Translations under genes and position numbers: made by a program
Part shown: in pieces, positions 1-23,257 of the stretch
Layout of the letters: each line of letters starts with the position of its first letter
How positions within the stretch are numbered: position 1 is the stretch's first letter
DNA from: Paramecium tetraurelia
Taxonomy: Eukaryota
Assembly: GCA_000165425.1 (NCBI GenBank)
Contig: CT868130.1
Coordinates: 372,001-436,000 of the forward strand
Reading direction: 5' to 3'
DNA length: 64,000 nt
Notes under the pieces: model-generated
The model's input: only the letters and a program-made list of their open reading frames with translations
Databases searched by the model: none
Told to the model about the DNA's origin: nothing

Positions 1-2909
1 TTACATCCTCCTGATGCAATTAGAAAGTTTTGACATGGACTAATTAGTATTCTATAGAGTGTCATACCTTATTTAGGACATATGAATTGTTTATTTTTAG
101 AATTCATACTCTTACTTGAAATAGACATAATAGAATTATCACCAAACAGAACCACAAATTCATCTTTCTTATCTGCTACACACACATATTTTAAGTTTAG
201 AAAAGGCAAAGGAGCAATTGGTTTAAATTCTAAATAACATTTGCTATATTTCCATAGTTTGATTTCATTAGGATGCACAGTAATCAAGTTTTCAGCATTT
301 AAAGGTAAGATTTATAAGATCTTAGGAGTTTATGTTGGATCATCTTCATTTGTTGCTAAATCAACTTCGACCAAGACGATGTTATGAGTAGAAGAATTAG
401 GTCGAATACTCATTTTACTGTGTGATAACATACGTTTTGAAAAACGCTTCAAAGCACCAGCCAGTTTATTCATATTTCTTTCCCAGAGACCACCTGTCAA
501 TCTCAATGCCTTTATTTCCTCTTATTATTATGTTTATAAAGATTAATTCTGTTGTAGTTTTTATCTTTCTCTTTCATCTGCTAAAAAGAATTAATCCACA
601 ATTTCACTAATCTACCTTTGTAATTCCTTTCTTTCTCTTTCTTCATTATATTATAGTGCCATTTATTAATCTACTTCATCTTTAACCAAAAATTCTTAAT
701 GATGTTATTTAAATTAATCTAAATTCTGATGTCTCACTAGTTTAAGTAGTCTTATCATTTTATCAAATGCCTCCTTTCTCGAGGTGGAACTCAACTTAAT
801 CTTAATTTTCTATTCAGTTGTGTCTTCAATAGATCTACACTCTTTTTCAACCTTTTTCAATTATTTGATTATGTATTTCATATATTTCATTCTCTTTTTC
901 CTTTGTTCACTTTTCAATACTGAAATTTCATGAGTTGTAGTTTATTGTACTCCATGTCTACGCTTAATCTTTTCTCTTATGTGATTAATATACCAATCTA
1001 AACTATCAGTTTTATGATTTGGATGAACAAAGTGTGCACACTCCTGGCAGCATAACTTTTATAGAATTCTGCATTCATTTTCATGACACACTACATCTAA
1101 TTTGCATTCCCTATTATTTTCATGTGGAAATGGTCTTGGCCTTATGTAATTGATTGACTTTGTTTAGCCATCATTCTAATCCTCATCATCTTATTATAGT
1201 AATCCAGCATTTTAATTATTAATATAATCCTGTTCATAAGCTTTTCTCATTATTCTAATCTATTTATTTTAATTCTCAAATATGTTATTATGTACTTCCT
1301 AACAAATATTAACAAATTAATTTAATGATTTTTGTTTGTATTATAAAATGCTGTAAATAAAATATTTATATAAAACATAATTTCAATAGCAATCAGTGAT
1401 ATATATTTTTCATATCTTCTATTATTTTTTCAACTCCTCATCGCTATCAAGATCAATTATTTTATTTTTTTCAGTATACTGCAATAAGGATTCTATCAGA
1501 ACCTTAATTGAATATAATATTTCATTTTTATCTGTCTTCTCTACAGGTTTATTGGATTTCTCTTGGCATATACTCAGAATCATAAGTAAACTATTGCTAG
1601 TTTATTTTGACTCCTCAAATATTGTTTTTAAATCAACCAAATACTTTGAACGCTCCTAATATACTAATTCAAGCATTTTCTAAATTATCTCAGCTTCACA
1701 ATATGCTGTCTGGTTTAGGACTGATGTTCTACAGAAATTGTTTAATTAAGTGAAACTAGTTACACTATAAAGGTCAATAAGGGGTTTTTAAATGAACTAA
1801 AAATATTTCCTTAATAATGTATCAGAAGTATCAAATTTAAGGTTTCCATTTCTTAATTTTATCAAATTTATTATTTACGGAAATCCTGTTTTATCCTTTA
1901 TCATTTTGGCTATTACTTCCTTCAACACTATGACTATATTAACCTTATGATTTCTATTTTATTATCTTCTCTCAGTCATTTATTATGAAGTCTCTAATAA
2001 TTAATTGAACAGAGCTTTCAATCGATTGATTTAAGGAGAACTTTAAATTTTTGATGTTTATGTCAGCAAATTCCTGATTTGACTTTAATTGACTTCAATT
2101 CCTTTCATTACTAGAACGGATAATGTTGAATCAATTAAATCTTATTCAGGTATCTCTAAATATTGTTTGTAATATTGTAATTTTAATTCTAAAAGACCTT
2201 GTTCTGCTAATGATACATTATTGTATCCCAATTCTTCAGCCACCTTCTTTACTTACACAATTGACAATATGGTTCTTTCTAGATTTTAATCTATTCTTAA
2301 TTTCATCTGGTCTCCTGTCAAATATAAACAATTAATGAAACAAGGTAAGGGAATCTGCTCCTGATTACAAACAGCAATTAAAATGAATATAATTCTCTCG
2401 TTGTGCTATAACAAATAGATTAATGTTGGAGGCTGATTAATTTGATAGAGTTTAGTTGATATTGGATGCTAAATTTATTAATCTAGCAAATGTTTGAGAT
2501 GCTCAATATTGACTCTGGTTTTAATTCTTTTCACTACTTCATATATGATATCTTATAAAGTGTACAAGTCATCAGTGTGACTATCAGTAATATGACTAAG
2601 TTCATCAAGGTGTGCTTATGAAAATTCGATAGTATACTCATTATTGATAATTTGGATGAAATTCACAAATTTAGGAAAGGACTTGTCATATTTAATGATA
2701 GCTAATAGTTTGCCTTTTATCTTTTATTCAATGACCATCTGTTCTTTCACAAACTAATCTAATTATTTGAGTATCAATCCAAATTTAATAATGTTCTTTC
2801 TGTCAGGAATATTACCCTCAATCTATTTGACTGATAAAAATTCATTGATGATAGGATCCTGCATTATATCACTCATTTGTTTAAAGATGTGTTTGTAGGT
2901 TGAATACAT
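1..2909 (-). CDS. Uncharacterised large protein: Cys/His (B-box-like) cluster, coiled coil and probable WD40-like C-terminus; runs off the window edge
   Basis: ATG at 2909 (MYSTYKHIFKQMSD...), long frame in code 6. Motif CHENECRILQKLCCQECAHFVHPNH near 1020-1090. C-terminal LISPCQNFLIASGG resembles a WD40 strand. A 22-nt GTC..TAG intron near 355-377 is needed to join the 69..287 ORF frame. Confidence 0.65.
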
Positions 2910-3040: not shown

Positions 3041-5751
3041 TCATTTCTTTTTAGGTTGTGTTTTTTTTAATTTCTTAATTTCCTCGTCTTCCAACTTGGA
3101 TTTCTACTATTCATTCAAAGATTTATCAAATGCCATATATTTAAATACTTTTCCAGAATGACTAAATGAGGTGCCATTAAATGTGATTTCTACGCCAACA
3201 TCATGGATTCCTGTAGGTAACTCTAATTCCGGAATTTACACCACTAATTTGCTTTTATTTTTGAATATAGCCTTATAATAAATGAGTATTTTGTACCTTT
3301 TAATTAACAGCCATGTTGCCATTAAAAATGAATTAAACTAAAAGAGATTCAGTATTGGCTAAATTTTCTCCATAGACACTCAAATATTGGCCAGTCTTCT
3401 TGAAGAAGTAATTGATTTCTTATTCTTCAGTCTCCAACTATTTCTAAACTTCATCTTTCTTCTTTTATAAATCAGCTCCTTATAAATCCTTTAAGTGGTC
3501 GATCTCCTATTCCTCTTAATGAATTAATTATTTCTTCTGTTCCTCTGGTAATTTTTCATCAACAAGAAAAGGACCCAGACGCAAGACTTCTGGATCAATA
3601 TAGTAAAATGTTCCAATAGGTATCCATTCAATACCAGAAAGTGTTAATAAAGCAGTGACTCCATTTGCTTTAACAGCATTAAGCAATTCTGGAGTAGGTT
3701 GTTATCCACCTAAGAGCCATGATAAAGGAGGGGCAACAAAGGAATAAAATCTATCCTGCTTATCCCACATGATTTCAATTAGTCTTTCTCCAAATAGTGT
3801 CTTAAAGATCACTCTTTTATTGGTAGTATCAAAAAAGCCATCTCCAATTATTTTAACAGAAGCTCCTCCTTCAGACATAACATTATCTGGTTGCAATTCC
3901 TTTATTTAAATATCATAAAATCTAAAGACCATAGGGTTACCAGTAAATTATTATCCATTGATACTTACATCAACATTAAAATTAAGACTGTCTGTTTGTA
4001 ATTAACTTACATTAGGAATGGTACATGAGATCTTTCCTTTTTCATAAAAGCCTTCAACACACATCCAATTTTCTTTATCTAACTCAGGATCATTGATACT
4101 GAGATCTAGAGGATTCAATGGTTTGTTAGTGCTTTGTTTCATAGCAGATTTATCTTCCTTCTTCTTATTTCTGGGTTAGAATCCAATATTTAAATGTTTC
4201 ATATAAGAGGCAGTCAAATCATCTATATTGATATTGATAATGAGTGTTGTTCCACCTTGAATGGATGCACATTTAGGATAGAGTGAAGAGATAACAATTT
4301 TGGATGAATACACTAGGAACTTCTACTCACATTCAACATACACATTACCATCAAGAGTGACTTCGACTACACATTCAACTGGATATTTATCAAGATGCTC
4401 TTCAAAATTTGGAGTTGTACATCTGAAACTGTCAGTTAACGAATCATATTCACATCCAACTTCAGTATATTAATCTCCTAATTTGAATCTTGCACTTTAT
4501 CTGCCAGTATCACAGAACCCTGTACCAATCAAACTAATAATGGTGCCTCCAGTAGAAGGTCCATGATTAGGTTTCATAGAAATTGTTCTTAAGGAAGCAA
4601 AGAAGGCTGCAGCTTATCCATTTGCATACATGTTAGTGAATTTGCGATCTTCCAATACTATTTTTCTTGGTAAATCTACTAATTTATCGTTTTGATGGCC
4701 AAGATTACCTCCACCCCAACTCCAAAGTCCTCCTTTTTGATCAATAGCATATGTAGTATAATATCCACACATAACCTTACTAAATCCAGGCAATTAAATT
4801 CCACTAATATCTTGCATTAATCTTTTAGGATAGTAACTACTCTTCTTATCCTTATCTCCATTTCCCAATTGTCCTCTTTGGTTGAATCCCCAAGTGTATA
4901 ATTCCCCTGTCGATGTAACAGCTGCAGAATGTCCGTATCCTCCTGATATCGAAACCACTTAAAAGGATGTCTCTTAAGGCAGGAACTTTCCTACTCTTAA
5001 TTCACTCTGATTCATAGGCTTTTCAAGTAGAAAGTCTATTCTAGATGGCAATTGTTCTGAAACCTTTCTTCCTGTTCCCAATTAACCAAATCTAGCCTCT
5101 CCCCAACCATACAATGCTCCTTATTAATCTACAGCCAGTGAATGATAGGCCCCACATGCAATCAATTAAATTCTGTTCTTATAAAAGTAACTTAAAAACA
5201 TGGGAGATGCTGCTGTTTCAACATCCTTTCTAATTCCTAATTATCCTTCAAACCCTCTTCCCCAAGCAAATATATCGCCATTGCTTAATGCTAAAGTATG
5301 ATACTCACCACATGCAATTGTATCGACTTTTGAAATTCGTATGATCTTTTTTGGTATTGATAACTCTATTATTCCTCCATGTCCCAATGCTCCGTATTCT
5401 CCGTAACCATAACTGTATATATCTCCTTAGTCACTCAAGAAAACTGTGTGTTTTTTTCCTGTCACTATCGTTTTGATTGATCCCTTGAAATCGAATGATT
5501 ATAAATTGTTTGAATCTTGTGAAAATGTCTAGTCGTACTCATCATGTTCAGGAGAGTGCAATGTCGAAATTATTCTACTATTAATTATAGGCTTACCCTT
5601 GATTATCTAATCCTTCCTCGATTACAAATAATTTCCTACAACCACCGCAAAGACTGCTAATCAGTTTCCCCTTAAATAGTTTCAAGTTTTCCAAACCTCC
5701 TTGAACATCGTCGGTTGTCAAAAACACTTCTCCGAAGGTAGGAAGTTGCAT
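3041..5751 (-). CDS. RCC1-repeat protein with C-terminal IPT/TIG (Ig-like) domains
   Basis: [10 protein letters not shown] start. Repeats [77 protein letters not shown] starts [55 protein letters not shown]. Stop KKK-TGA at 3041-3043; short introns. Confidence 0.85.
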
Positions 5752-5768
5752 TAAATAATTTTAATTAA
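5752..5768. promoter_or_regulatory. 17-nt all-A/T spacer between divergent start codons (putative bidirectional initiation region)
   Basis: CAT(5749-5751)-TAAATAATTTTAATTAA-ATG(5769-5771). Confidence 0.5.
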
Positions 5769-8700
5769 ATGTTAAGAGGAGGAGGAGCATGTGCCAATAC
5801 ACGTCCCTAATAGTCAATGCAAATGAGTACTCTACTCATTTCCAACTAGTTCGAGAGCATACTCTCAAGTAATATATAGTACATCTCAAAAAATGCAGAG
5901 GATACATAAAACAATTATAAAGAATTGCATTCCAGTCTTTAAGCATTATTATCACTTGATTATGAATTAAACAATCTAATAAAGTCCTAAAATTAGCTTA
6001 ATAAACAAATTGCTAATCTAGAGAAAAGTCTGTAGTCTATTTTGGAATCGTGCCTTTAACTCAAAAATCCTTAACTTCGATATTATGCCGTGAAATTTGC
6101 CGAAAAACTTTCTAGAACTATATTTTGGCATTACTGTTCAGCAAAATCGATAAAAGATGGCATGCAACAAAACTATATCAATACTTTTAATAAAATTGAA
6201 GTACTCAACAACAGCGAAGAAGGATTTTACAAAAATTTAACTGAATATGAAATCACTATATCCAAAATGATTTTTACGATATTGCCAAACGATTTTCAAG
6301 AGGGGCTGGAAGTCATCGCTCTATTTGCTAGCATCAACCAAGTTCTAATGAATGCCCTCCCGAAAACAATGAGAGAAACAATCAAGGGGGGTATTGTCCA
6401 ATCAATCAGAGACGCAACCAAAGTTTAATATCGTAAGATCTACAAATAAATCTTTAATATTGACATCATGAAATGGTGGGTCCTCACTGACCTCAAATCA
6501 ACTACGCATACAATCAAAGAGATCATTAGTGAATTGCAAGAATTCCACAAGGAACTGTCTAAATCCGATTACTATGTGTAATAAGCTTGGATCATAGCCA
6601 TCAGTGAAATTGTATCTTATACCCCGAGTCTTTCAGAAGACTAATTGTCAATAGAACAACCAGATATACAAGTATTGCTTGATATCTTTTGTTTAAATAA
6701 AGTCAAGGAGGAATACAGAATTAGCATTAACTAAGCAAAACTTAAATGCACCCAGTGTCAGGGACTCTATGAGAAACTGCCTACATTGACTGTATTGTAG
6801 TAGATTCAAGAATAGATCATTTCGAGAGAACGGTTCTTTAACATACTGTATGATAACAAAGAGGAAATTAAGGAGTAATAGAAATAGGAGACAAGTGTTA
6901 AAACCATTTTCGAATATTTATTCACCTTGTTTATTGATTGCGATATTGAAATCAATATTGATCTAATACGAAAAGTAAATTAATAATATATTGAAATTAA
7001 TGAAAACATTTAATTAATTAAACAAATAAGTTTAAATAAATGGATCAGGATGTTAGAATCTAAATAATACTCAGATCCAGTTGTTTTTGGCGAGTTTGAA
7101 TAAAAATAAAAATAAATTAAGCATTTAATTAACAAAGTGAAAGGAATCTAAAGATTTCTTATTTAATTGGATTTCATATTCTCTCAATGGAATCTATTAG
7201 AATAAATTGCAGAATCTGATTAAAAGTAAGAAACTCAATTGGCAGTATTCCTAGAAAACAAGCAAAATCAATTGAATTGCCAATAAATAAGTTAAATGAA
7301 TTTGGAGAATTTGAAAGAACTGCTCTTATTAAATATCAATTTTGATGTCTATTTTGCAATACTGACCGAATTTGTTGAAAGACAATATACAGCTGTATAT
7401 CAAGTTGTTTAAAGCACTTAGTCTACTGATCCAGTATTATAACTATATAAGCAATATAAAGATGTGCAAGACATCGTTTAATCAAGTTTTCGTAAAGTAA
7501 ATGAAAAAATTTTATAATTTAAAGAAATATTTTAACATATTTCTGAGAAGTTGAAACAAATTGAATACAATTGCATTTTGAAGTTTTATCATGTCTCATT
7601 GAAATTGTAACATCTGGATCTACCCAATCAGTAATTCGAATTCAGAAACCAAGATCATTAAACACTGTTCTTTATACAAAATTATGAAAAACAGATTTTG
7701 AAAACCTAAATGATTGAATTGCACAAGGAATTTAAAGAATTTGTAGCCAGCAGTCAATTTTAGGATTATGATTAAGCCAAGATCTATCTATAAACGATTT
7801 AATAAATATGCAAGTTTATGGAAAGTTTATTGCATTAGAACAAAAAACTATTCTAGCATTTACATAATTTTAAATAATCCTTATAAATCGAGTCTGCTCA
7901 TGGAAAGTTTAATGATTTACTTAATTTATGGACTATGATCTTGCAAACAACAACCGAACTTGATTCATAATAATTTGATTAAGCAGTCTTCCTTGTCAAA
8001 TTTGATTAATTGTAACAAAAGTAGGAGTAAATAATAAAACTCAATCAATAGATAAGATGGCCTTTCAATTAGTATTTGTCATAATACTTCAAAATGCTTA
8101 CTCAATTAGATACTATTTTCTAAGAATTGAAAACATTTAAGACTTATGATTCCACTGCTGATCCAAATACATAAAATAGGTATGATAGCCTGAGATTGAA
8201 TCTTAAATAAATATGCCAAAGTCAAATTCAAAGAATTAAATCAACTCTCGAATAGTACAATCAAGGAGTTGATCAATTACAAAATAAATTAGATAATCAA
8301 AGTCATTTATCGATCGAGGAACTGTTATCCTAATTAGTCAATATGCAAGAGGCTTTAGATGAAACTTTGAATTTGATTTAAACAAGACTGACTCAACCCT
8401 AATCCTAATAAAATGTTGGATCTTTAAACTTAATTCAAAATCAAAGATTAACAGATTTCGAAAATCTATATAATTATAAAATAAATACAGATTCTATCTA
8501 AGTGGCATCATATATAAAATTTAATTATAATTTCATAGAATAGAATGCAATTATGGAATCACTAAGATTAGATTTAAATGATGATATCAATCACCACGTC
8601 GTTTAATCAGGGATTGTCTCTGCACCCATTAGAATTGTAATGATTACCAATTTAATCAATATTTGGAATTGTTGTATAGGACAGGAAGAGTTTGATATAA

Positions 8701-11700
8701 TAAGTAAATTGATTTTGCAGATGCGACTAAATGAATCCAATCAAATGATTAAAAAAGAGATTAAGACCACTTATAAAAAAGAGTTTGGATATATTATTGA
8801 TAATATATTTCAAATCCTATTGCCAAGTGTTGAGGAGGATTTAAGATTGAAAATCAAAGAAAGGAATTAATTATCATTCTAAATTAAGTATGAGCCATCC
8901 TTTGAAAAATCATAGAACTTGAATGAAAAACTCAACAATCATACAAACTAAATTTCCACGATATTTACCAACTTGTAGGAATTAGAATAAGAATATAATT
9001 ATCGCATTCCCTTTTATGAGTAATTAATGAATGAATTCAAAAAAGCAGATTAAAGTACCTCTACTTTAGATGTCTCAGAGATCAAATTCTACTAAGGAAA
9101 GTAATTAACTGAGCTATTTCTATTGCGTATGGATTAGGTATCTAGAATGATCAAGATTTAATAAGTGAAAAATGCTTATGTCGAATTAGAATGTTAGAAG
9201 AAAAATGAGATTAAGAAATTGTTGTCCAAAAAGGATAATAAAAATGGTATTATTGATAAATTCTTAGAGGATTAACAATCATATTAGTTGTTGGTTTTAT
9301 AAGGGGAGGCTGGATCTGGTAAAAGCTTAGCCATTAGAATGATTGAGGAATCAGTTTGGAAGCGAAATGATGCCATTAAAATTATACCGATCATCATAAA
9401 GTTGTCAGAATTGAAGGATCCTATTCATAATGCAGTCACAGAGACTCTGAGATCTTTGAATTATAAATTTGACTTGGCTCAAATAGAACAATTATAAAAA
9501 GATGTGAATTCAAATAAAATGCAGATGTTGTTCATTTTTGAAGAATATGATAAACTCAGTCAAGATCAAATAGGAATCAATCTATTTAAGTCCAATAATC
9601 TCAATCAATGGAAAACACCATCTTTGTAGAAATCTCCTAAATATATTATTGCAACTAGAAGTGAATTATTCAAATATGCCAATCATCTAAGATGGATAGA
9701 TAGTAATGAAGTTGATTACAACTACTAAAATTATTGGAATCTTAAAATTATGCCATTTGATTTGGATTAAAAAAATTAATTTCTTATTAAATATTAAGAG
9801 TTAATTATTAGAAACACTGTTATAGATTTTTATTAGATAATGTGTGAATTTGAACATCAAGATCTATTGATTCAGAACTTCATATCCTTATGGAAAAAAA
9901 TTGATATCAATTTTAATGAATTAAGCATGGAAACTTCCTTAATATCACAACCAACAATAACCAAAATTATTAATGCTTTGAAACAAGAACCAAAAATTAA
10001 AAATGGCAATGAAGTTGCATTCCAACAATTATAAAAGGCTTTAGAATAATTAAAATCCTGTTATTATTATTAAAGGATGTTGGAATAATTAAACTTTTAA
10101 CAACCTATTGACAATCCCTAAATTTTGAATGTTTTTTATACAGCACTACCCAAATTATTGTAGAATATGTCAAATATTTAAAGAATAAAGAAGGAATATT
10201 ACGACATTTATTTTAATGATACATATGCTATCAATTGTGATATATCACTTTGTAATTCTCAGATCGAAAAAGATTGGAATCAATTAGTTAATAGTTCATT
10301 CTTTAGATTTTATAAAGCTGATGAACCAATCACTAAGATTTAAATACTTTTAGCACAAAATTTCGGTGAGGATTAACAATTTTAGAATAAAGTCTTAAGA
10401 ATCTTTGAGAAAATGAGTATCACTCATTATGACCTATATGAGCAATATCTAACGAATTTCTTTGATACTGCATTAATTCACATACAAATAAGTCAAAAGA
10501 GCATTGATTTGGAAGCATTTTAACAAGAATAATGGAACTTCTGTTTGAATTTGGCATAAAAGTTATCCTAACATGAGATTTTCACTATTCATTTTAATAG
10601 CAAGGGTTCTTTAATCAAAGTAGGAGGCTCTGTAACTGAATGGGAAGAGTACTTCAATGATGACGAATATGTTTAATAAAATACCAAATTTTCAAAAAAA
10701 TTACTAAGGAGTTCCATACCATTAAGAGAATAATTTTCAATTTATGCTTTTGAGAATAAAATTATCTAAGAATTCTTAGTAGCCAAGGCTGTAATCACTT
10801 AATTAGAAGCATTGGAAACCTAATCAATTGACGAAGTGATGGCAAATAGCATTTTAAAGTTTAAGACAATTTCTAATCAATTTTTTTAAGGAACAGTTAA
10901 CTTTTTAGTTTAAAAATGCAGAAACAGGTTTAGTCTTAAATAGTAACTAATCTCACTCGTTAGATCCTCAGCTTAAGGCTAATAATATAGCATATTAGCA
11001 TCCAACGCTCTTTATTTATTACAATGTATTGATGGAGTGATTAAAGGTCTAGATTTATAAGGTATTAGATTAAAAGATATCCCTATTGATAATTGTCATT
11101 TTTATAATTGTAATCTTCAAGGATCAGAGTGGACAAATATATCTGTTAACTCTCTAACATTAATGAAGAATAACATGAAAAACATGAAATGCTAAAATTT
11201 CAAATTGAACACTTATTCAATTAAAAACACAGTATCCAATCCTAAGTTCATAAGATAATTTAAATCTGGGAAGTCATTTCTGATTAATGAAAATGGTATT
11301 TAGAATTTAAAGGGTGGTACTATTATACAAGGCAAATTTGATATTTGTTCAATAGATGAAATTAAAAATAGATTTTATGTTAAAACAAGTTTATCAGTTT
11401 ATGTTTTGCATGAATAGAATGAACAGATAATAGCAGAAGAATTAAAAATTCCTAATGTTCATTCAATTTCAGAATTTGATTAATTTATAATGCTATTTTA
11501 ATTGAAGAGTGATGTTGATGCAACAATATTTGAGTTAAATGGAAATACTAATGAAATTAAATACTAAATCCCTATTGATTTAAGTGTTGTTAAACATTAC
11601 AATATCAAAAAGTACTTTTAAATGTATGGTAATCAGATTCTGTTTTAAACTAATGCTAAATAAGTCTCCAGTATGCATTATTAAATTGAAAATGATTAAT

Positions 11701-14105
11701 TGCAATTTGACAATTTGACTAATCATGTAACTATAAATGGTGATAATCAAATTGTTGCCATAAACTATTATAATAATTTGGATATCACAGTAATATCATT
11801 TAGTGATGTAGAGACAAACTAGATCTATGATATTATTTATGGATCAATAAATCAATTGATAGGTAGATTTATATTCCTTGAAAATTAAAAAAGTGAGTTC
11901 TTTTACTTGAAAAACAACAAATTATAATTAATAAACTAGGGAACATTTAAGATGATAAATGAATGTGAAATAAGTAATGTAAAATTATAACTTTTACATA
12001 ACTATTGTAATAAAATAGACGACACTGTATTGCTTTCTTTTATTGATTCAATTGTAATTCTGAGTCTTCGTCCATTTGAAGTCATTAAATTTATATAAGT
12101 TGATGCAATCGATTTATTAGTAAATTTATAAAAAAATCAATTGTAAATATTGACCAATTATGAAATTATAAATTATGATATTAAATACTTAGAAGACAGA
12201 CAAAACTAAATTAAGAATTTTAATTATTAGTTTGAGGAAATTGTATTTTCATAGAACTCTCCCAATTTCCTGGGTAGGATTAGATATACAAATGAGATTG
12301 TTTTGGCAACATTTCAAAATAAGGATTTTGAATTCAAAATTCTAACAAAATCAGAGAATCCTCGATTTTATTTGAGCAATGATTTGAACTCAGCTGTAAT
12401 ATGCGAGGAAGATTGCACAGTTTATTTTGATTTAAAAACTAATAAGTAAATAAGAATTGTAAATTTACAATATGAGAAAATTTTGTGGATTAAAGACAAT
12501 TCAAACTTATTTTATATTCAATCTGGATTTGTTGAGGAGTATAGAAATTCTGTTATTACTATAAAAAACAAAATTGTTAGTAAATAATCATACAGATCCA
12601 TCTAAAAGGTTTAGAGTACTGAAAATAAATTGTACATTACTACAACTACAAATGATACAATAGTCATTAATGAACAATTTGTGTAAGATTTTATTACATC
12701 AAAATAAATGATTAAGAAGTATAGAGAACATTATATAACTGAAAGTGATTTAAGATTTGAGAGCAAGGTTAGGAACACAATCACAATAAATTATTAGACC
12801 AATAACAAAATAAGAGATTTTTGGATGTTTTCTGAAACAATTTTGATCAAGGAATAGATTGATAACAGCGAGATGGGATTTTTAGTATTGTTGGATAAGT
12901 AAAACTATAAAGTAATAAGTGAAATATTGGTCTAGATAGATTTTATAGCTTATACAGCAGATGCAATCTAAATCATTTCTAATAGATTAATTTGGTTAAC
13001 ATATTCAGCCTTTGATTTATAATTATTGCAAACCAACATTTTGAATGTGAATACAATGTTCGTTGTATCAAATCATATAGATTAACTGATGATAATCTCC
13101 TAATATTCTGAAATAACTATTTGGAATACAATCACTTATGTAGCAGATTACTACTAAAAAAATGTGGAATTGATTTAATATGTTAAAATGATACCAGGAA
13201 ACAAGAATGAGTATTACATAGCGGATAGAGATGTCTTAAAATTATATATTTAAAATGAAGTTCGCTTTTCTATTTAATTGAGTAAGAAGAGAATTGATCT
13301 ACTCACAAATAAATACGGAGTGCATCATTATATTTATTAAGTAGAAGATGACAAGGTGATATTAAACTGCATGAGTGAAGATAATAAACTTATATACTGG
13401 AAGAAAATAGTTTTTGAATTAGATTCAATAAGAGAATAGATCGATTGCTATGATAATAAAGACAACAGACTAGTATTTTTTGGGGGGTCTAAAATTCAAT
13501 AAGTCTAACTGGATGCCTTTGATGATATTAAGGTTCTGGATATCCCAGCTAACTTTAAAGGAGTTCAAATTAAATACAACAGAGATTGTTCAACAATATA
13601 TTTTAGATCTAATGAAAAGATCTTGGTCATTGAAGCTATGACTATGAATCTAATTACTTAAGTTATTCTAATGGAAATCTTGCCTCAACCATTTGACTTT
13701 AATTGTTAATTGGAAATGTATTGCCAAAATCAGAATAATATTATAATCTAATAAGAGAAGAATGGTTATCATTATGTATATAACTATAATTAATAAGCTG
13801 CTTTTGGTTAATTGGATATAGTGACCATAGGTAATTATCATCATTTCATTGGTACGAATTCATATGGATTACTAATTGTTGATGGTCAGACTGGAATCAT
13901 TGAATTATTTATGCCTAAAATTGTTAACCCTAAAAATAACTTTGTGTCCTATATTAGATAACAACAATTCAATAAGTCAAACATAGTTCAATGCCAAATT
14001 TGCGACAATTTATTGGAAAATTGCCAGATCATTTCAAATAATGGGGAGAATATTAGTGAATTGTGGAAAAAGGGAGAATAGGTTGATTTATTGATATCAT
14101 TTTGA
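5769..14105 (+). CDS. NACHT/STAND NTPase with pentapeptide repeats and degenerate WD40-like beta-propeller (NLR-like), ~2,778 aa, apparently intronless
   Basis: ATG 5769 and TGA 14103-14105 are in one frame, as are ORF-track pieces 6090, 8640 and 9840. P-loop GEAGSGKS (9303-9326), Walker-B region LFIFEEYDK, PKYIIATRSE, YAFENKIIQEFLVA, LASNALYLL followed by pentapeptide-like GLDLQGIRLKDIPIDNCHFYNCNLQGSEW, then a long beta-rich tail. Confidence 0.85.
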
Positions 14106-14166: not shown

Positions 14167-14875
14167 ATGTCTCGCTACATCAATTTAGTAAAAATTCATA
14201 TCATTGTTGAAAGCAAGACAAGAGTGTTCCATGCAAACCACTAGAGGAGTTTGATATTAAAGTATACAGAGAAAAACTTAATGATAAATATGGAAAATCG
14301 CCACTTGCATCCTAGCATACGCAACCCATATCTCCAAAAAAGAATATCAAAATAGGGTATTCAATCAATCTACAATAGTAATCCAAGTTTTGATTTATTG
14401 CAAACTAAATTAAAAGAATTTTCAAATAAAAAAAGTATATCGCCATTAAAATCAAGAGTTGATCAAAATTCTCCAAAAAGAGTATCTGGAATTTAGCAAT
14501 AGTAAATAATTCGAAAAATAAAAGGATTTCTAAGATAGGCACGTTAAATTTTACATTGCCATCCAAATAAATGAGAATTGGATCTTTCTCCGATACTTTA
14601 TAGTTCAATGGTTCTATTAGTGAAGATAGAAGAATATATCCAGTGAGACTTGAGACTGAAGTCTAAGAAAAATTGGCATTCTCCCAGAAGCCGTAAGAAT
14701 TTCTTATAGTTTTTTCAGTATTACCAATATGATTCCTCTGCATGAAATCATGAATATGAGAAACAAATTAGAAAATGCACAATTAAATGTTAATTAAATT
14801 AGTTCTGCTTATACAAGTGAAATGGTTAAATTGGCCTCTGTTATTAATTCCTAATTGAAAAAGAAATCAAAATGA
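14167..14875 (+). CDS. Hypothetical protein (SP-rich, basic)
   Basis: MSRYINL/intron/QDKSVPCKPLEEFDIKVYREK...; several short GT..AG introns; ends KKKSK-TGA. Confidence 0.6.
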
Positions 14876-14991
14876 TTATATTAACTTATTATTATTACAT
14901 CATATCATGTAATATTAAATTTGTAGTATACATATTAATTTTTTAATTAAATCTTTTAAATCAAATCAGCCTTGCAATTAAAATATAAATT

Positions 14992-16071
14992 ATGCAAGAC
15001 TTATCAATTCTTTCCGATCTCCTTCCCTATACATGGCCCGAATAATAACAATAGAGAATCAGTCTTATCAACAATCTGAAAGAATAATTTCATTCAATCC
15101 TTCAAGCCAACCCATGTTTTTATGAAAAGATAAGAAGAATTAAGTAAAATCTAGCCCTCTAAGGTCCATATTATGAACTAATACAAGAGTTTGAAGAGGA
15201 AACCTATACTCACCATAAATTAAAACACATTTTGTAATATTTACATTTTGAAGGAGAACAAAGACCCACAATTTTAAAATAATTTTTAAACCCACAAAAA
15301 TTATAAAAATTAATTTGTGATATTTATAGAATTTTCAATAGAACCATATTAGATTACTAAGCTAAATCAATTGCATATCCTTAATATTTGAAATTAAGTC
15401 TATCTATCTATAAGAAGATATCTAATCAAAACTTTTTGGATTCAAATACATTTAACTTTATTTGCCATTATGGTAGCAGGAGATGTTATACCTTAAGAGA
15501 TTTATGGTAAGATTTCGATGTCAATCAGCCTAAATATATTTGGTTAACATAATGTTTAAAGAGAATCTCTAATTGTAATTAACCTAGAATAAATTCCGTA
15601 CAATAATATTTTAATAAATAACAATTAAATTTATGCTTTATACTTTATTGCATCATGTAATGCGAAGAATTAATTGCTATTGCCTTAGGAGAACAATGTA
15701 GCAACTCTTTAATTTACTATGAAGATGACTAGATAATTCCATAAGAAATTTCTAGTGAAGATTTCTCTTGGCATTATAATTGTTTTACTCAAATTCGAGA
15801 TTATTTCCCTAGATTAGCCTAAAAACTGAATAAAAGAATGAAATAATTAAAAAACCTCCCAATTTACAATGAATAAACTAGGATATAAATCTTTAATTAT
15901 ACTTAATCATTACATGGTTATCAAAATAATTTTGAAAACACCTTATCCGAAGATATAAAATAAAATATTAGTCAAATTTTATCATACTAATAACTTGATT
16001 ATGATCCAGGACTTGTAATCTTGGTGGCCAATGCCAAAATGTATACTTAACTGATGTATTCACTCATGTGA
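14992..16071 (+). CDS. Hypothetical protein
   Basis: MQDLSILSDLLPYTWPEQQQQ...; open frame after a ~20-nt intron near 15145-15165; ends YSLM-TGA. Confidence 0.55.
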
Positions 16072-20989: not shown

Positions 20990-23095
20990 TCAATCCCAAT
21001 CAGAATCTATTGTTTTTTATGTTTTTACATCTGCTTCGCTTATATTTACATCAGAAGTAAATTTAGTATAAATACCTCTAACAATATCTGCAACTGCTGT
21101 GATCTTTTTACTATTTCCAGTATTTTAAGCATCCCAAAACTTCATTTGTTGATATAAGTTTTTTTCCTCTTCTCCAAAATGTCCAGGTGGTTCATTTGGC
21201 TTTTTGTCAACTTGAAATATTTTATATTTCTATGATTAGAATAATCAAATTACTTCATAATTTGTATCGAAAACATTTCCTGATGTTAACAAAAAATCTG
21301 CAAAGTCTAAATCACTTTGCTTCCTTTAACGAACTTCCATATCTTCTTGCATTTACTTTAGTTTATTTTCTATTTTTATAAGCGGATCAGATACAAATGG
21401 AGTAGAATGGTGTTATTATTTTTCTAAATCTCTTAATGATTCAACAACAGACCTTTCTAATTCAATACTATGCTATGATATTCTTTGTGATTCTATTTCA
21501 TTGATTTCTTAATTTATCTTTTCTTGTCTAGGTGATTTAGCTGTCATTGGATGTTCTTAGACTCTTTAATTTTAATTCATATTAGGTAGAACTCCTTAAC
21601 TTTAAGTTACTGGAGGTTTTATTTACTTAGCCTATTTAGATATATTTAATTAGGTTTAAATATTGGGTCTAATCTCTTATTTCCCTTACTTTTTTGGAGT
21701 ATTAACTTATTAATGCTATTGTTGTTATTACTGTTATAATTATTATTATTATTGTGGTTATTATTATTATTACTATTATTATTAATATTACTATTACTGC
21801 TATTATTACTATTATTATTATTATTATTAATATTATTCCTACTGTTATTATTATTATAATTATTGCTATTCCTTTTTTTTGGTTTATAAGTATTCTCCAC
21901 TCATATCTTTATAGTCTTCTGGATTATATTAAAATTACTCTTATCTTTCTCTAGTCTTATGTATTTTTTCTTCCAACTCTCTAATTTATTTTCTCATTTT
22001 ATCTCTTTACATTTCTTCTGCTTCATCTAGATCATTTGCATTCTGTTGAATTATTTATTCTATCCTATCTAAATCAGATATAGACATTTAAGATTATTAT
22101 CTACTAATTTTATTGGATCTTATTCCATCAGACTTTTTGATTGATTGAATACTTTGATTAGCTTTGGAATTGGATTGCTGTTATTTTTATTGTTTCTAAG
22201 CCTTTTATTTAGGTTACTTTTTATTTTTTGTTTATTTTTTAGAAGATTGAGCTTATTCTTATTCTTCTTCCTCATCGACATCATCATCATCTTCATAGTT
22301 AATCAACGAAATTTCATTATTGATAGAGTATTATTAAGGCACTGAGAATTATGAAATGGCATAACTCTCATTAATTTACTATTATAATGTTTATTCTTAA
22401 ATTTCAACCTACTGTTGAGATTCGCATTAAACAGAGTTTTCATTTTCTATTGGCTCATTTAGAACTACTTCTTCATGCTTCTCTGTTGATATATCCACAT
22501 TTTATTCTTCAACTTTAATGCTAGAAAGACTTTGATCTTCTTAATTAGACTTCTATCTATTTTGTTCCTCTTATTATTACACTATTAAGTATTAGGTTTA
22601 TTATTGCAATTATTAGTATCTGGTAATTTTCTATATGCTTGATAAAGAGCCTTGAGATCTGTAACTTTCACCAATGCTTCCCACTCGATTAAATTTTGAT
22701 CTATTGAGTGCCAATTCCAATTTCTTGTAATGATCAGAGTTTTCATTTAAATGAACATTTTCAACTTTGATTGAGGATTGTAATTGCTTTCTTGTTAAAG
22801 TCGTTTATTATCCTTTAGAAATTTTGTATTCTTTCAGTCTATTTTCTAAAGCATCTTTGTGCAAAAAGTATTCATATTATTATATATCTAATGACCTAGT
22901 AGTAATTTGTTCTGGAGAATTTAATAGTGATTAATAATCAGTAACTTTATTGATTTTAGCATAGTTTTGTTTATTTTATAGAAATTTAAGTGTATATTTT
23001 TAATTTTTAAGTATTGAATTGTGTCCTCCTCCTGTACTACTTTAGACTTTTACATCATTGTTCTATCCCTTTGTGAATGGAATATAATCAAGCAT
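20990..23095 (-). CDS. Hypothetical low-complexity Gln-rich protein
   Basis: MLDYIPFTKGQNND...; long code-6 frame with acidic and polyQ tracts; ends DSDWD-TGA. Confidence 0.65.
21715..21870 (-). repeat. Imperfect (TAA)n trinucleotide tract encoding polyglutamine
   Basis: Plus strand shows (TTA)n runs; the minus coding frame reads TAA/TAG/CAA/CAG codons. Confidence 0.85.
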
Positions 23096-23257
23096 TTTAA
23101 TTAATTTTAATTGCTTAGGTAGGAATTAAAATATAAAATATATGAAATATACACTCATCCCCAAATCCAAATCCATTGTTAAAAATACAGAATTATTTAA
23201 ATCATTTTGTCATTCTAGTGTGTTTGATTACTTCACTTTAACAAATATAATTAATTT

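What the first reader, a model, noticed from the sequence alone, without database searches (positions are those of the whole stretch)
5769..5804. NLR-like giant protein begins with a bare ubiquitin tail (M-LRGG-GAC): candidate DUB-cleaved, lipidation-activated sensor
Seen: the first codons are ATG TTA AGA GGA GGA GGA GCA TGT GCC AAT ACA = M-L-R-G-G-G-A-C-A-N-T, on a NACHT/pentapeptide/propeller protein, with no ubiquitin fold in front. Established: LRGG is the C-terminus of ubiquitin/NEDD8 and the P4-P1 site for deubiquitinases and LxGG-specific pathogen proteases. N-myristoylation needs a free N-terminal Gly, and a nearby Cys is a typical palmitoylation site. Inference: cleavage after LRGG exposes G-A-C, giving protease-gated membrane targeting of a STAND protein, either as routine maturation or as a tripwire for DUB effectors of intracellular bacteria (conceptually like NLRP1/CARD8). 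From memory, LRGGG-C starts recur in Paramecium NACHT-WD40 proteins, but I know of no functional description. Caveat: the residue five from the new Gly is Asn, not the preferred Ser/Thr.
Basis: partly seen in the sequence, partly recalled or inferred. Interest (0 to 1): 0.8.

Follow-up and report, generated by a model that had tools for sequence, protein, structure and literature searches.

The report
Conserved LRGG mini-leader on Paramecium NACHT proteins
Two distantly related families of giant NACHT (immune-receptor-like) proteins in Paramecium start with a tiny leader ending in the ubiquitin tail Leu-Arg-Gly-Gly, followed at once by a Gly/Cys lipid-anchor-type motif. This suggests, but does not prove, that cutting off the leader switches on membrane anchoring.

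Summary
The 2778-aa ORF at 5769..14105 (+, ciliate code) starts M-L-R-G-G-G-A-C, and the identical protein is in public collections. No ubiquitin fold can precede it: a divergent RCC1/TIG gene has its ATG only 17 nt upstream, and stranded RNA reads show no upstream exon.

MLRGGGAC is invariant in 11 of 11 orthologs/ohnologs from five P. aurelia-complex species, while residues 9-13 vary. The later Mets are not conserved. A second NACHT-WD40 family shares only about 27% identity in the central region and has no detectable N-terminal homology. It starts M-[K/N]-LRGG-GCGS[S/T] in 5 of 5 members.

After a cut behind LRGG, 16 of 16 sequences fit the loose N-myristoylation pattern, 11 of 16 fit the strict GXXX(S/T) signal, and all have Cys at +2 or +3.

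Best reading (about 0.4): a removable mini-leader whose removal by an LXGG-type protease exposes Gly for myristoylation plus Cys palmitoylation. Cleavage, lipidation and the protease are all untested. A classical deubiquitinase is doubtful without a ubiquitin body.

Rivals: an uncleaved, palmitoylated N-terminus; a ubiquitin-tail mimic used for docking; DNA-level constraint.

I found no description of this in the papers searched. I file it as a new variant of known kinds.

The parts
5769..14105 (+). Whole CDS of the 2778-aa NACHT protein (stop included), with no intron called
   Evidence: table 6 ORF; the exact protein is in public collections; orthologs are 2760-2779 aa.
5769..5783 (+). Proposed mini-leader M-L-R-G-G (start codon plus LRGG, i.e. 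P5-P1 of the proposed cut)
   Evidence: Invariant in 11 of 11 family-A sequences. LRGG is also present in 5 of 5 family-B sequences, shifted by one residue.
5784..5801 (+). G6-A7-C8-A9-N10-T11: candidate new N-terminus with Gly for N-myristate and Cys8 for S-palmitate
   Evidence: It fits the loose pattern G-{EDRKHPFYW}-x(2)-[STAGCN]-{P} (pattern recalled). It fails the strict GXXX(S/T) signal because position 5 is Asn. G6, A7 and C8 are invariant in family A.
5817..8588 (+). N-terminal all-alpha region (aa 17 to about 940) with no known family, found only in the aurelia complex
   Evidence: 3 hits among 1.84e9 representatives, namely its own cluster and 2 fragments; helices, pLDDT 60-82 for aa 24-215 and low elsewhere. 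Searches gave no informative match.
9288..9569 (+). NACHT NTPase core (aa 1174-1267), with the P-loop GEAGSGKS at aa 1179-1186
11052..11213 (+). Weak pentapeptide-repeat match (aa 1762-1815)
   Evidence: 21.3 bits, below the cut-off of 38. PF13599 is precomputed for ortholog P0005.
11256..14102 (+). Beta-rich C-terminal region (aa 1830-2778), possibly degenerate beta-propellers
   Evidence: AF2 mean pLDDT 45.5, mostly strands. Foldseek hits to multi-propeller proteins at E about 1e-12, but TM about 0.1. There is no Pfam WD40 hit.
5752..5768 (.). 17-nt AT-only spacer between the two divergent start codons
3201..5751 (-). Divergent 842-aa RCC1/TIG gene with a 22-nt intron at 5575-5596. It excludes any upstream exon for the NACHT gene.
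   Evidence: the spliced ORF is continuous. Pfam RCC1 and TIG; minus-strand RNA reads reach about 5752, and depth dips over the intron.

Best explanation
The first five residues (family A: M-LRGG) or six residues (family B: M-K/N-LRGG) form a removable mini-leader. A cysteine protease with LXGG-type specificity, still unidentified and either host or pathogen, cuts after the second Gly. The third Gly then becomes the new N-terminus. It is myristoylated by N-myristoyltransferase, and the Cys one or two residues later is S-palmitoylated. The lipids tether the protein's disordered N-terminal tail, and with it the large alpha-helical N-terminal domain of this NACHT ATPase, to a membrane. Lipid anchoring is therefore gated by proteolysis rather than being co-translational.

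Shown here: the motif, its start position, its conservation, its recurrence, and its fit to the acylation consensus.

Inferred: the cut, both lipids, membrane targeting, and any signalling consequence.
For: 1. The start is real.
- The public model starts at the same ATG.
- The upstream in-frame ATG at 5544 lies inside the divergent RCC1/TIG gene, and no plus-strand-gene RNA is seen there.
- M17 and M19 are replaced by L/I in the ohnolog clade, which has no other Met in its first 80 aa.

2. Constraint. MLRGGGAC is invariant in 11 of 11 family-A proteins whose overall identity falls to 55%. Residues 9-13 vary. It is one of 6 invariant runs of 8 or more residues in 2784 columns, of which 39% are invariant.

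3. Recurrence. Family B (P0015, P0016, P0018-P0020) starts M-[K/N]-LRGG-GCGS[S/T] in 5 of 5 members. Families A and B align only over A 943-1812 / B 1005-1893, at 26-27% identity. LRGG keeps its sequence and its reading frame but not its distance from Met. This argues that LRGG itself, not an 'ML' start, is the selected element.

4. What follows LRGG.
- 16 of 16 sequences fit the loose NMT pattern, against 35 of 183 internal Gly in three representative proteins.
- 11 of 16 fit GXXX(S/T), against 24 of 183.
- 16 of 16 have Cys at +2/+3, against 2 of 183.

5. The one retrieved NACHT paralog without the long N-terminal domain (P0017) lacks the motif.

6. In the AF2 model aa 1-16 are coil with pLDDT about 29, ahead of helices. 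This is a low-confidence model.

7. Precedents.
- Proteolytic removal of a leader exposes the Gly that is myristoylated in cardio- and aphthovirus VP4, with the signal given as GXXX(S/T) (passages of PMC6089459).
- Caspase-exposed Gly is myristoylated post-translationally (PMC4200515, abstract in the listing).
- A viral papain-like protease cuts the bare peptide RLRGG-AMC, and its own site is LSRGG|G (passages of PMC9271420).
Against: - No cut, lipid or protease has been observed. Everything rests on sequence.
- Cellular DUBs generally need the ubiquitin fold. I know of no host enzyme that trims a 5-6 residue leader ending in LRGG (own knowledge).
- If anchoring were constitutive, a plain Met-Gly start would do, so the leader needs a reason that is not yet known.
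- The window's own clade (5 of 16 sequences) has Asn, not Ser/Thr, at position 5.
- The sample is narrow. All 16 sequences come from five aurelia-complex species and amount to three clades. The loose pattern is met by 19% of random Gly positions.
- RNA depth at the 5' end is 2-4 reads. Those reads begin a few bases downstream of the ATG (bin means), so RNA data here do not prove that the ATG lies in the mRNA.
- Synonymous-site variation could not be checked because no ortholog DNA was available.
Confidence: 0.4

Rival explanations
1. The N-terminus is not cut. Cys8 (Cys8 in family B as well) is S-palmitoylated on the intact tail. The Met-Leu start is retained and possibly N-acetylated. LRGGG is a flexible spacer or a recognition element for an acyltransferase.
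For: The Cys is invariant in 16 of 16 sequences. The tail is predicted disordered (low confidence). N-terminal Cys palmitoylation without myristate is well known in other proteins (own knowledge). This reading needs no unknown protease.
Against: - A spacer should tolerate Gly/Ser/Ala/Asn exchanges, yet L, R and all three Gly are invariant across about 27%-identity paralogs.
- In family B the start is M-K/N-L, so an 'ML' N-terminus is not the conserved element.
- The exact identity to the ubiquitin tail, and the Ser/Thr/Asn at +5 from the third Gly, are left unexplained.
Confidence: 0.22
2. LRGG is an uncleaved mimic of the ubiquitin/NEDD8 tail. It docks into a tail-binding groove, such as that of a DUB or an E1-like or other ubiquitin-system enzyme, as a pseudosubstrate or recruitment handle. 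It would regulate the NACHT protein or the enzyme.
For: The four residues are identical to the ubiquitin tail and are invariant in 16 of 16 sequences. They sit in an exposed, disordered position.
Against: It does not explain the invariant Gly-(Ala)-Cys and the acylation-like residues that follow. Known tail-binding modules mostly need a free C-terminal Gly-Gly or the ubiquitin body (own knowledge). No partner is encoded nearby.
Confidence: 0.08
3. The constraint is on DNA or RNA, not on the peptide. With only 17 nt between two divergent ATGs, the first codons of the NACHT gene double as core promoter, start site or leader for the RCC1/TIG gene, or as a translation-initiation context.
For: The spacer is 17 nt. 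Paramecium 5' UTRs have a median of 19 nt (passages of PMC5485702). Minus-strand reads reach about 5752, so that gene's start site may lie within the MLRGG codons.
Against: Family B keeps the same peptide, in frame, after one extra codon, in a gene that differs in its first ~1000 aa. A shared DNA element would not need to keep the frame. The codons used are simply the common Paramecium ones (own knowledge). The protein-level pattern after the motif is coherent.
Confidence: 0.05
4. Annotation artefact: translation really starts at a later Met, so the motif is never made.
For: The few plus-gene RNA reads begin a few bases after the ATG (depth 2-4).
Against: M17 and M19 are L/I in 6 of 11 family-A proteins, which have no Met in their first 80 aa. 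Yet aa 20-90 are strongly conserved as protein. Standard RNA-seq under-covers 5' ends, and the neighbour's reads likewise stop about 1 nt before its own ATG.
Confidence: 0.02

Closest known systems
Leader removal exposing the myristoylated Gly of picornavirus VP4/VP0 (cardio-, aphtho- and kobuviruses)
   Same: A leader is removed by a protease, and the Gly that becomes N-terminal sits in a GXXX(S/T) signal and is myristoylated by the host NMT (passages of PMC6089459).
   Different: There the leader is a whole protein or a long peptide within a viral polyprotein, and the protease is viral and known. Here the leader is 5-6 residues on a cellular NACHT protein, it ends in LRGG, a palmitoylatable Cys follows, and nothing has been shown experimentally.
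Post-translational N-myristoylation after caspase cleavage (for example the substrates profiled in PMC4200515)
   Same: An internal Gly is turned into a lipid-acceptor N-terminus by regulated proteolysis (abstract in the listing).
   Different: Those cut sites follow Asp and lie deep inside proteins. The trigger is apoptosis. No LRGG is involved, and the substrates are not STAND proteins.
Ubiquitin / NEDD8 / ISG15 precursors and LXGG sites of viral papain-like proteases
   Same: The same P4-P1 sequence, Leu-Arg-Gly-Gly, with Gly allowed at P1'. Bare RLRGG peptides are cut by a viral PLP (passages of PMC9271420).
   Different: No beta-grasp domain precedes the tail, since only 1-2 residues do. 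The usual recognition surface for cellular DUBs is therefore missing.
N-terminally acylated plant CC-NLRs
   Same: An NLR/STAND receptor carries a Gly/Cys acylation motif at its very N-terminus, ahead of a helical domain (PMC11467418, abstract in the listing).
   Different: In plants the Gly directly follows the initiator Met, so acylation is co-translational. Here 4-5 residues intervene, so a cut is required. The N-terminal domains show no detectable relation.
NLRP1 / CARD8 protease 'tripwires'
   Same: A STAND-family sensor has a disordered N-terminal stretch that could be a protease target. In NLRP1 the new Gly N-terminus matters, as a Gly/N-degron (PMC7857732 and 10.1101/2024.06.24.600508, abstracts in the listing).
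   Different: No FIIND/UPA-CARD module was found. The motif is invariant rather than rapidly evolving. The proposed output is lipidation, not degradation.

Membership tests
Ubiquitin-like precursor (Ub/NEDD8/ISG15 type) | A beta-grasp ubiquitin fold immediately N-terminal to the LRGG tail | tested here: not met
   Only Met (family A) or Met-Lys/Asn (family B) precedes LRGG. There is no room for an upstream exon, because the spacer to the divergent gene is 17 nt and no RNA joints were seen.
Ubiquitin-like precursor (Ub/NEDD8/ISG15 type) | The tail sequence Leu-Arg-Gly-Gly | tested here: met
   16 of 16 sequences.
N-myristoyltransferase substrate | A free N-terminal Gly (Gly at position 2 after Met removal, or exposed by proteolysis) | tested here: not met
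   In the primary translation product Gly is at positions 4-6 (family A) or 5-7 (family B). It would be met only after the hypothetical cut, which these tools cannot test.
N-myristoyltransferase substrate | The consensus after the acceptor Gly: GXXX(S/T) as given in PMC6089459, and the looser PROSITE-type pattern (recalled) | tested here: inconclusive
   With a cut after LRGG, the strict signal is met by 11 of 16 sequences (not by the window's own clade, which has Asn) and the loose pattern by 16 of 16. Background among internal Gly is 24 of 183 and 35 of 183.
N-myristoyltransferase substrate | Covalent myristate demonstrated | not testable with these tools
   Needs metabolic labelling or mass spectrometry.
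Substrate of LXGG-specific papain-like or clan-CE proteases | P4 Leu (or Met/Ile), and P2-P1 Gly-Gly in an accessible segment | tested here: met
   Sequence. The tail is predicted as coil (low confidence). Cleavage itself was not tested.
NACHT / STAND NTPase | A Walker A P-loop and a Pfam NACHT match above the curated cut-off | tested here: inconclusive
   The P-loop GEAGSGKS is present. This copy scores 20.9 bits against 26.7. Ohnolog P0008 scores 28.3 and paralog P0015 30.8, both above the cut-off. The central 850 aa are homologous between families at E 5e-49.
NLRP1/CARD8-type tripwire sensor | A FIIND (ZU5-UPA) autoprocessing module that releases a C-terminal effector after N-terminal degradation | tested here: not met
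   No such Pfam family was found at E up to 0.1.
NLRP1/CARD8-type tripwire sensor | A rapidly evolving cleavage-site region | tested here: not met
   The motif is invariant in 11 of 11 and 5 of 5 sequences. Note that a mimic of the invariant ubiquitin tail need not evolve fast.
Hedgehog/intein-type Gly|Cys autoprocessing | A Hint domain starting at the Cys | tested here: not met
   No Hint/Hedgehog family appears in Pfam. The region after Cys8 is predicted all-alpha.

The most novel reading that the evidence does not exclude
The mini-leader is a tripwire. In healthy cells the protein keeps its MLRGG cap and stays soluble. A pathogen protease that must recognise the host's invariant ubiquitin tail cuts the cap. 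Candidates are a deubiquitinase-type effector of an intracellular bacterium, or a Gly-Gly-specific maturation protease of a giant virus. The cell's own NMT and palmitoyl-transferases then lipidate the new Gly/Cys N-terminus, and the NACHT protein is driven onto a membrane where it oligomerises and signals. This would be a protist NLR that converts pathogen protease activity into a lipid switch. Because the bait copies ubiquitin's tail, the pathogen could not easily evolve away from cutting it.
Probability: 0.12. Interest if true: 0.9.

Novelty: new variant of a known kind. Interest (0 to 1): 0.6.

Why it matters
NLR/STAND proteins of protists are almost unstudied, and how they are activated is unknown. 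Here a seven- to eight-residue start has survived unchanged in two NACHT families that are otherwise unrecognisable to each other at their N-termini. It joins two well-understood codes, a ubiquitin-tail protease site and a Gly/Cys acylation signal, in an arrangement I could not find described.

If the cut occurs, it would be a new way to gate membrane recruitment of an NLR-like machine. It might also be an ancient example of 'protease sensing' outside animals and plants.

The hypothesis can be tested directly in a tractable model ciliate with a handful of point mutants.

Tried and rejected
- Whole genome: none is held for this window. A proteome-wide regex and paralog DNA were therefore out of reach.
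I dropped that plan, because an 8-residue match cannot reach E <= 10 in that database.
- The last homolog search, with a NACHT-segment alignment and 'longer', covered only proteins of 808-2305 aa. It returned only P0017, 1 hit among 7759 candidates. It says little about how many NACHT paralogs exist.
- A profile-free search of aa 1-1150 against 1.84e9 representatives gave 3 hits: its own cluster and two short internal fragments, P0013 and P0014. Relatives outside the aurelia complex probably exist, but their N-termini are unknown.
- A metagenome scan with the back-translated first eight codons gave 1 locus. It was a 68%-GC bacterial contig with stops soon after the match, so a chance hit.
- The PDB sequence search found 0 hits at E <= 1. 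The ESM Atlas gave no usable hit. Foldseek on the N-terminal model gave only generic helical repeats with TM below 0.3.
- No RNA holder was listed in the run index. Only the three raw-read RNA runs that I laid were used as evidence.
- Five look-ups in earlier notes found nothing on this genome or on ciliate NACHT proteins. Two unchecked notes on giant-virus leaders ending in LRGG served only as a lead.
- The upstream in-frame ATG at 5544 is rejected. It overlaps the divergent gene and has no plus-gene RNA.
- A later-Met start is rejected.
- A bacterial-type lipobox is rejected: there is no signal peptide, and this is a eukaryote.
- Hedgehog/intein-type Gly|Cys autoprocessing is rejected: no Hint domain was found.
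Full report
WHAT IS THERE

The window is AT-rich (22-35% GC) and reads as ciliate DNA. Under table 6 a single frame runs from 5769 to 14105 and gives a 2778-aa protein.

The identical protein, with the same start, is already in public collections. Its closest named relative is a P. octaurelia protein at 97% identity. The window therefore comes from a species of the Paramecium aurelia complex.

LRGG occurs only once in the six-frame translation of all 64 kb. LRGGG has a per-position chance of 2.9e-8 given the protein's own composition.

IS IT THE TRUE N-TERMINUS?

Four lines of evidence say yes.

1. The frame stays open upstream to an ATG at 5544, but that stretch belongs to a gene on the other strand. 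Removing a 22-nt GTA...TAG intron (5575-5596) gives a continuous 842-aa RCC1/TIG protein that starts at 5751 on the minus strand. Only 17 nt (5752-5768) separate the two divergent start codons.

2. Three stranded oligo-dT RNA runs were laid on 5450-6250 (17, 53 and 10 reads).
   - Reads of the minus-strand gene run up to about 5752.
   - Reads of the plus-strand gene are absent from all 12 bins of 5450-5773 in 3 of 3 runs.
   - Plus-gene reads begin in bin 5774-5800 in 2 of 3 runs. The third run has none on this gene.
   - No splice joints were reported.
   - The depth is only 2-4 reads, and the bin means suggest the reads begin a few bases after the ATG. These data therefore exclude an upstream exon but do not prove that the ATG lies in the mRNA.
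   - Paramecium 5' UTRs are very short, mean 21.7 nt and median 19 nt (passages of PMC5485702). The neighbour's reads likewise stop about 1 nt before its own ATG.

3. The candidate later starts M17 and M19 are Leu and Ile in the ohnolog clade. That clade has no other Met in its first 80 residues, although residues 20-90 are strongly conserved as protein.

4. All public gene models of relatives start at the same codon.

No ubiquitin fold can sit in front of this start.

CONSERVATION

- A search with aa 1-500 returned 8 proteins among 5751 candidates. Cluster look-ups added two more full-length members.
- Together with the window's own protein this gives 11 full-length 'family A' sequences. They come from P. 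octaurelia, P. pentaurelia, P. sonneborni, P. primaurelia and P. tetraurelia, and their overall identity falls to 55%.
- All 11 start MLRGGGAC. Residues 9-13 vary (ANTRP, ANSRQ, TSQTK, ASQNK, ASQSK).
- In the 2784-column alignment 39% of columns are invariant, and only 6 invariant runs reach 8 residues. The start is one of them.
- Internal fragments P0012, P0013, P0014 and P0021 do not cover an N-terminus and were left out of these counts.

RECURRENCE

- A search with the NACHT region (aa 1120-1900) returned 11 proteins among 5524 candidates. Three of them were new.
- Two of the three (P0015, P0016), plus three cluster mates (P0018-P0020), form 'family B'. These are 2893-2894-aa NACHT-WD40 proteins.
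- All 5 of 5 start M-[K/N]-L-R-G-G-G-C-G-S-[S/T].
- BLASTP and profile-profile comparison align the two families only over A 943-1812 / B 1005-1893, at 26-27% identity and E 5e-49. The first ~940 residues are not detectably related.
- LRGG-G-(x)-C has therefore been kept, in frame, while everything around it diverged beyond recognition. Its distance from Met differs by one residue between the families. What is conserved is LRGG, not a Met-Leu start.
- The third new protein, P0017 (1692 aa), has its P-loop at residue 68, so it has no long N-terminal domain. It lacks the motif.
- In total 16 of the 17 full-length NACHT proteins retrieved carry the motif.
How many more families share the motif could not be tested, because no genome or proteome was available and my last homolog search covered only 808-2305-aa proteins.

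WHAT FOLLOWS LRGG

If the chain were cut after LRGG, the new N-termini would be:
- GACAN[T/S]R in the window's clade, 5 sequences;
- GAC[T/A]SQ.K in the ohnolog clade, 6 sequences;
- GCGS[S/T] in family B, 5 sequences.

Fit to acylation signals, compared with 183 internal Gly in three representative proteins:
- All 16 fit the loose N-myristoylation pattern, which I recalled from PROSITE. Background is 35 of 183.
- 11 of 16 fit the strict signal GXXX(S/T) quoted in PMC6089459. Background is 24 of 183.
- All 16 have Cys at +2 or +3. Background is 2 of 183.

THE REST OF THE PROTEIN

- The NACHT match is weak in this copy (20.9 bits against a cut-off of 26.7). The P-loop is intact, and the relatives P0008 and P0015 pass the cut-off.
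- The pentapeptide-repeat match is below its cut-off.
- aa 1-1150 have no relatives beyond their own cluster among 1.84e9 representatives, no PDB sequence match and no ESM Atlas match.
- An AF2 model of aa 1-480 has mean pLDDT 53. It shows a coil tail at aa 1-16 (pLDDT about 29) followed by helices (pLDDT 60-82 for aa 24-215). Its Foldseek hits are generic helical repeats with TM below 0.3.
- The C-terminal 949 aa model poorly (pLDDT 45.5) but are mostly strands. They hit multi-propeller proteins locally at E about 1e-12, with TM about 0.1. 'Propeller' is plausible but not established.
- The neighbouring genes are ordinary: PH, kinases, TBC, TTL, DnaJ, PX and Vps8. None encodes a protease or a ubiquitin-system enzyme.

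HOW IT MOST LIKELY WORKS

The proposal has four steps:
1. A 5-6 residue leader ending in LRGG is removed by an LXGG-type cysteine protease.
2. The exposed Gly is myristoylated.
3. The neighbouring Cys is palmitoylated.
4. The N-terminal helical domain of the NACHT protein is thereby tethered to a membrane.

Each step has a precedent elsewhere:
- Leader removal exposes the myristoylated Gly of cardio- and aphthovirus VP4 (passages of PMC6089459).
- Caspase-exposed Gly is myristoylated post-translationally (PMC4200515, abstract in the listing).
- Bare RLRGG peptides are cut by a viral papain-like protease whose own site is LSRGG|G (passages of PMC9271420).
- Some plant CC-NLRs carry N-terminal acylation sites (PMC11467418, abstract in the listing).

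None of these steps has been observed here. Cellular DUBs normally need the ubiquitin body (own knowledge), so the protease is the weakest link.

Rivals:
- An uncleaved tail palmitoylated at Cys8 (0.22). This leaves the invariant LRGGG unexplained.
- An uncleaved ubiquitin-tail mimic used for docking (0.08).
- DNA-level constraint arising from the 17-nt head-to-head arrangement (0.05). The in-frame recurrence in family B argues against it.
- A mis-called start (0.02).

COMPARISON WITH WHAT IS KNOWN

- It is not a ubiquitin-like precursor, because there is no fold in front of the tail.
- It is not an NMT substrate as translated, because the Gly is not at position 2.
- It is not an NLRP1/CARD8-type tripwire by anatomy. 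There is no FIIND module, and the motif is invariant rather than fast-evolving.
- It would work like a hybrid of leader-gated myristoylation and an acylated NLR.

I found no description of such starts in three searches:
- Paramecium + NACHT: 32 papers, 15 listed.
- 'LRGGG' anywhere in the text: 25 papers, 24 listed, none on ciliates or NLRs.
- Paramecium + N-myristoylation + palmitoylation: 3 papers.

Two unchecked notes from this scan (e1-5981988 and e1-5523392) report giant-virus proteins with leaders ending in LRGG and attribute them to clan-CE maturation proteases. I did not test them. They only make a pathogen-protease reading a little less far-fetched.

VERDICT

The motif is real, selected, recurrent and acylation-like. 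The processing is hypothetical.
- Novelty: a new variant of known kinds.
- Interest: 0.6.
- The boldest reading still open is a ubiquitin-tail bait that turns pathogen protease activity into a lipid switch on a protist NLR. I give it about 0.12.

Noticed in passing
window 5749-5771 (spacer 5752-5768): The start codons of the NACHT gene (+) and of an 842-aa RCC1/TIG gene (-) are only 17 nt apart, head to head. The spacer is pure A/T (TAAATAATTTTAATTAA). Each gene's promoter or start site must therefore lie within about 17 nt of its ATG or inside the other gene's first codons.
   Followed up: partly
window 5575-5596 (-): A 22-nt GTA...TAG intron lies in the RCC1/TIG gene. Removing it joins the ATG at 5751 to the RCC1 frame. 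RNA depth dips there, but no joint reached the reporting threshold.
   Followed up: partly
P0017 (P. sonneborni, 1692 aa): This is a NACHT-WD40 paralog whose P-loop is at residue 68. It has neither the ~1000-aa N-terminal domain nor the LRGG start. It would serve as a natural 'headless' control for the function of the N-terminal module.
   Followed up: no
P0013 (77 aa) and P0014 (67 aa), fragments from raw-read assemblies: These are internal pieces, 63% and 42% identical to aa 498-540 and aa 283-348 of the window protein. They hint at family-A relatives in more distant, un-annotated Paramecium-like organisms. Their N-termini are unknown.
   Followed up: no
window 21245-23176 (-): A 643-aa ORF with a long run of Gln encoded largely by TAA/TAG (107 reassigned codons). 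It has no Pfam family.
   Followed up: no
window 3..1250 (-), 1410..2909 (-), 14872..16071 (+): The ORFs flanking the locus have no Pfam match at E <= 1e-5. They are probably lineage-specific Paramecium genes.
   Followed up: no
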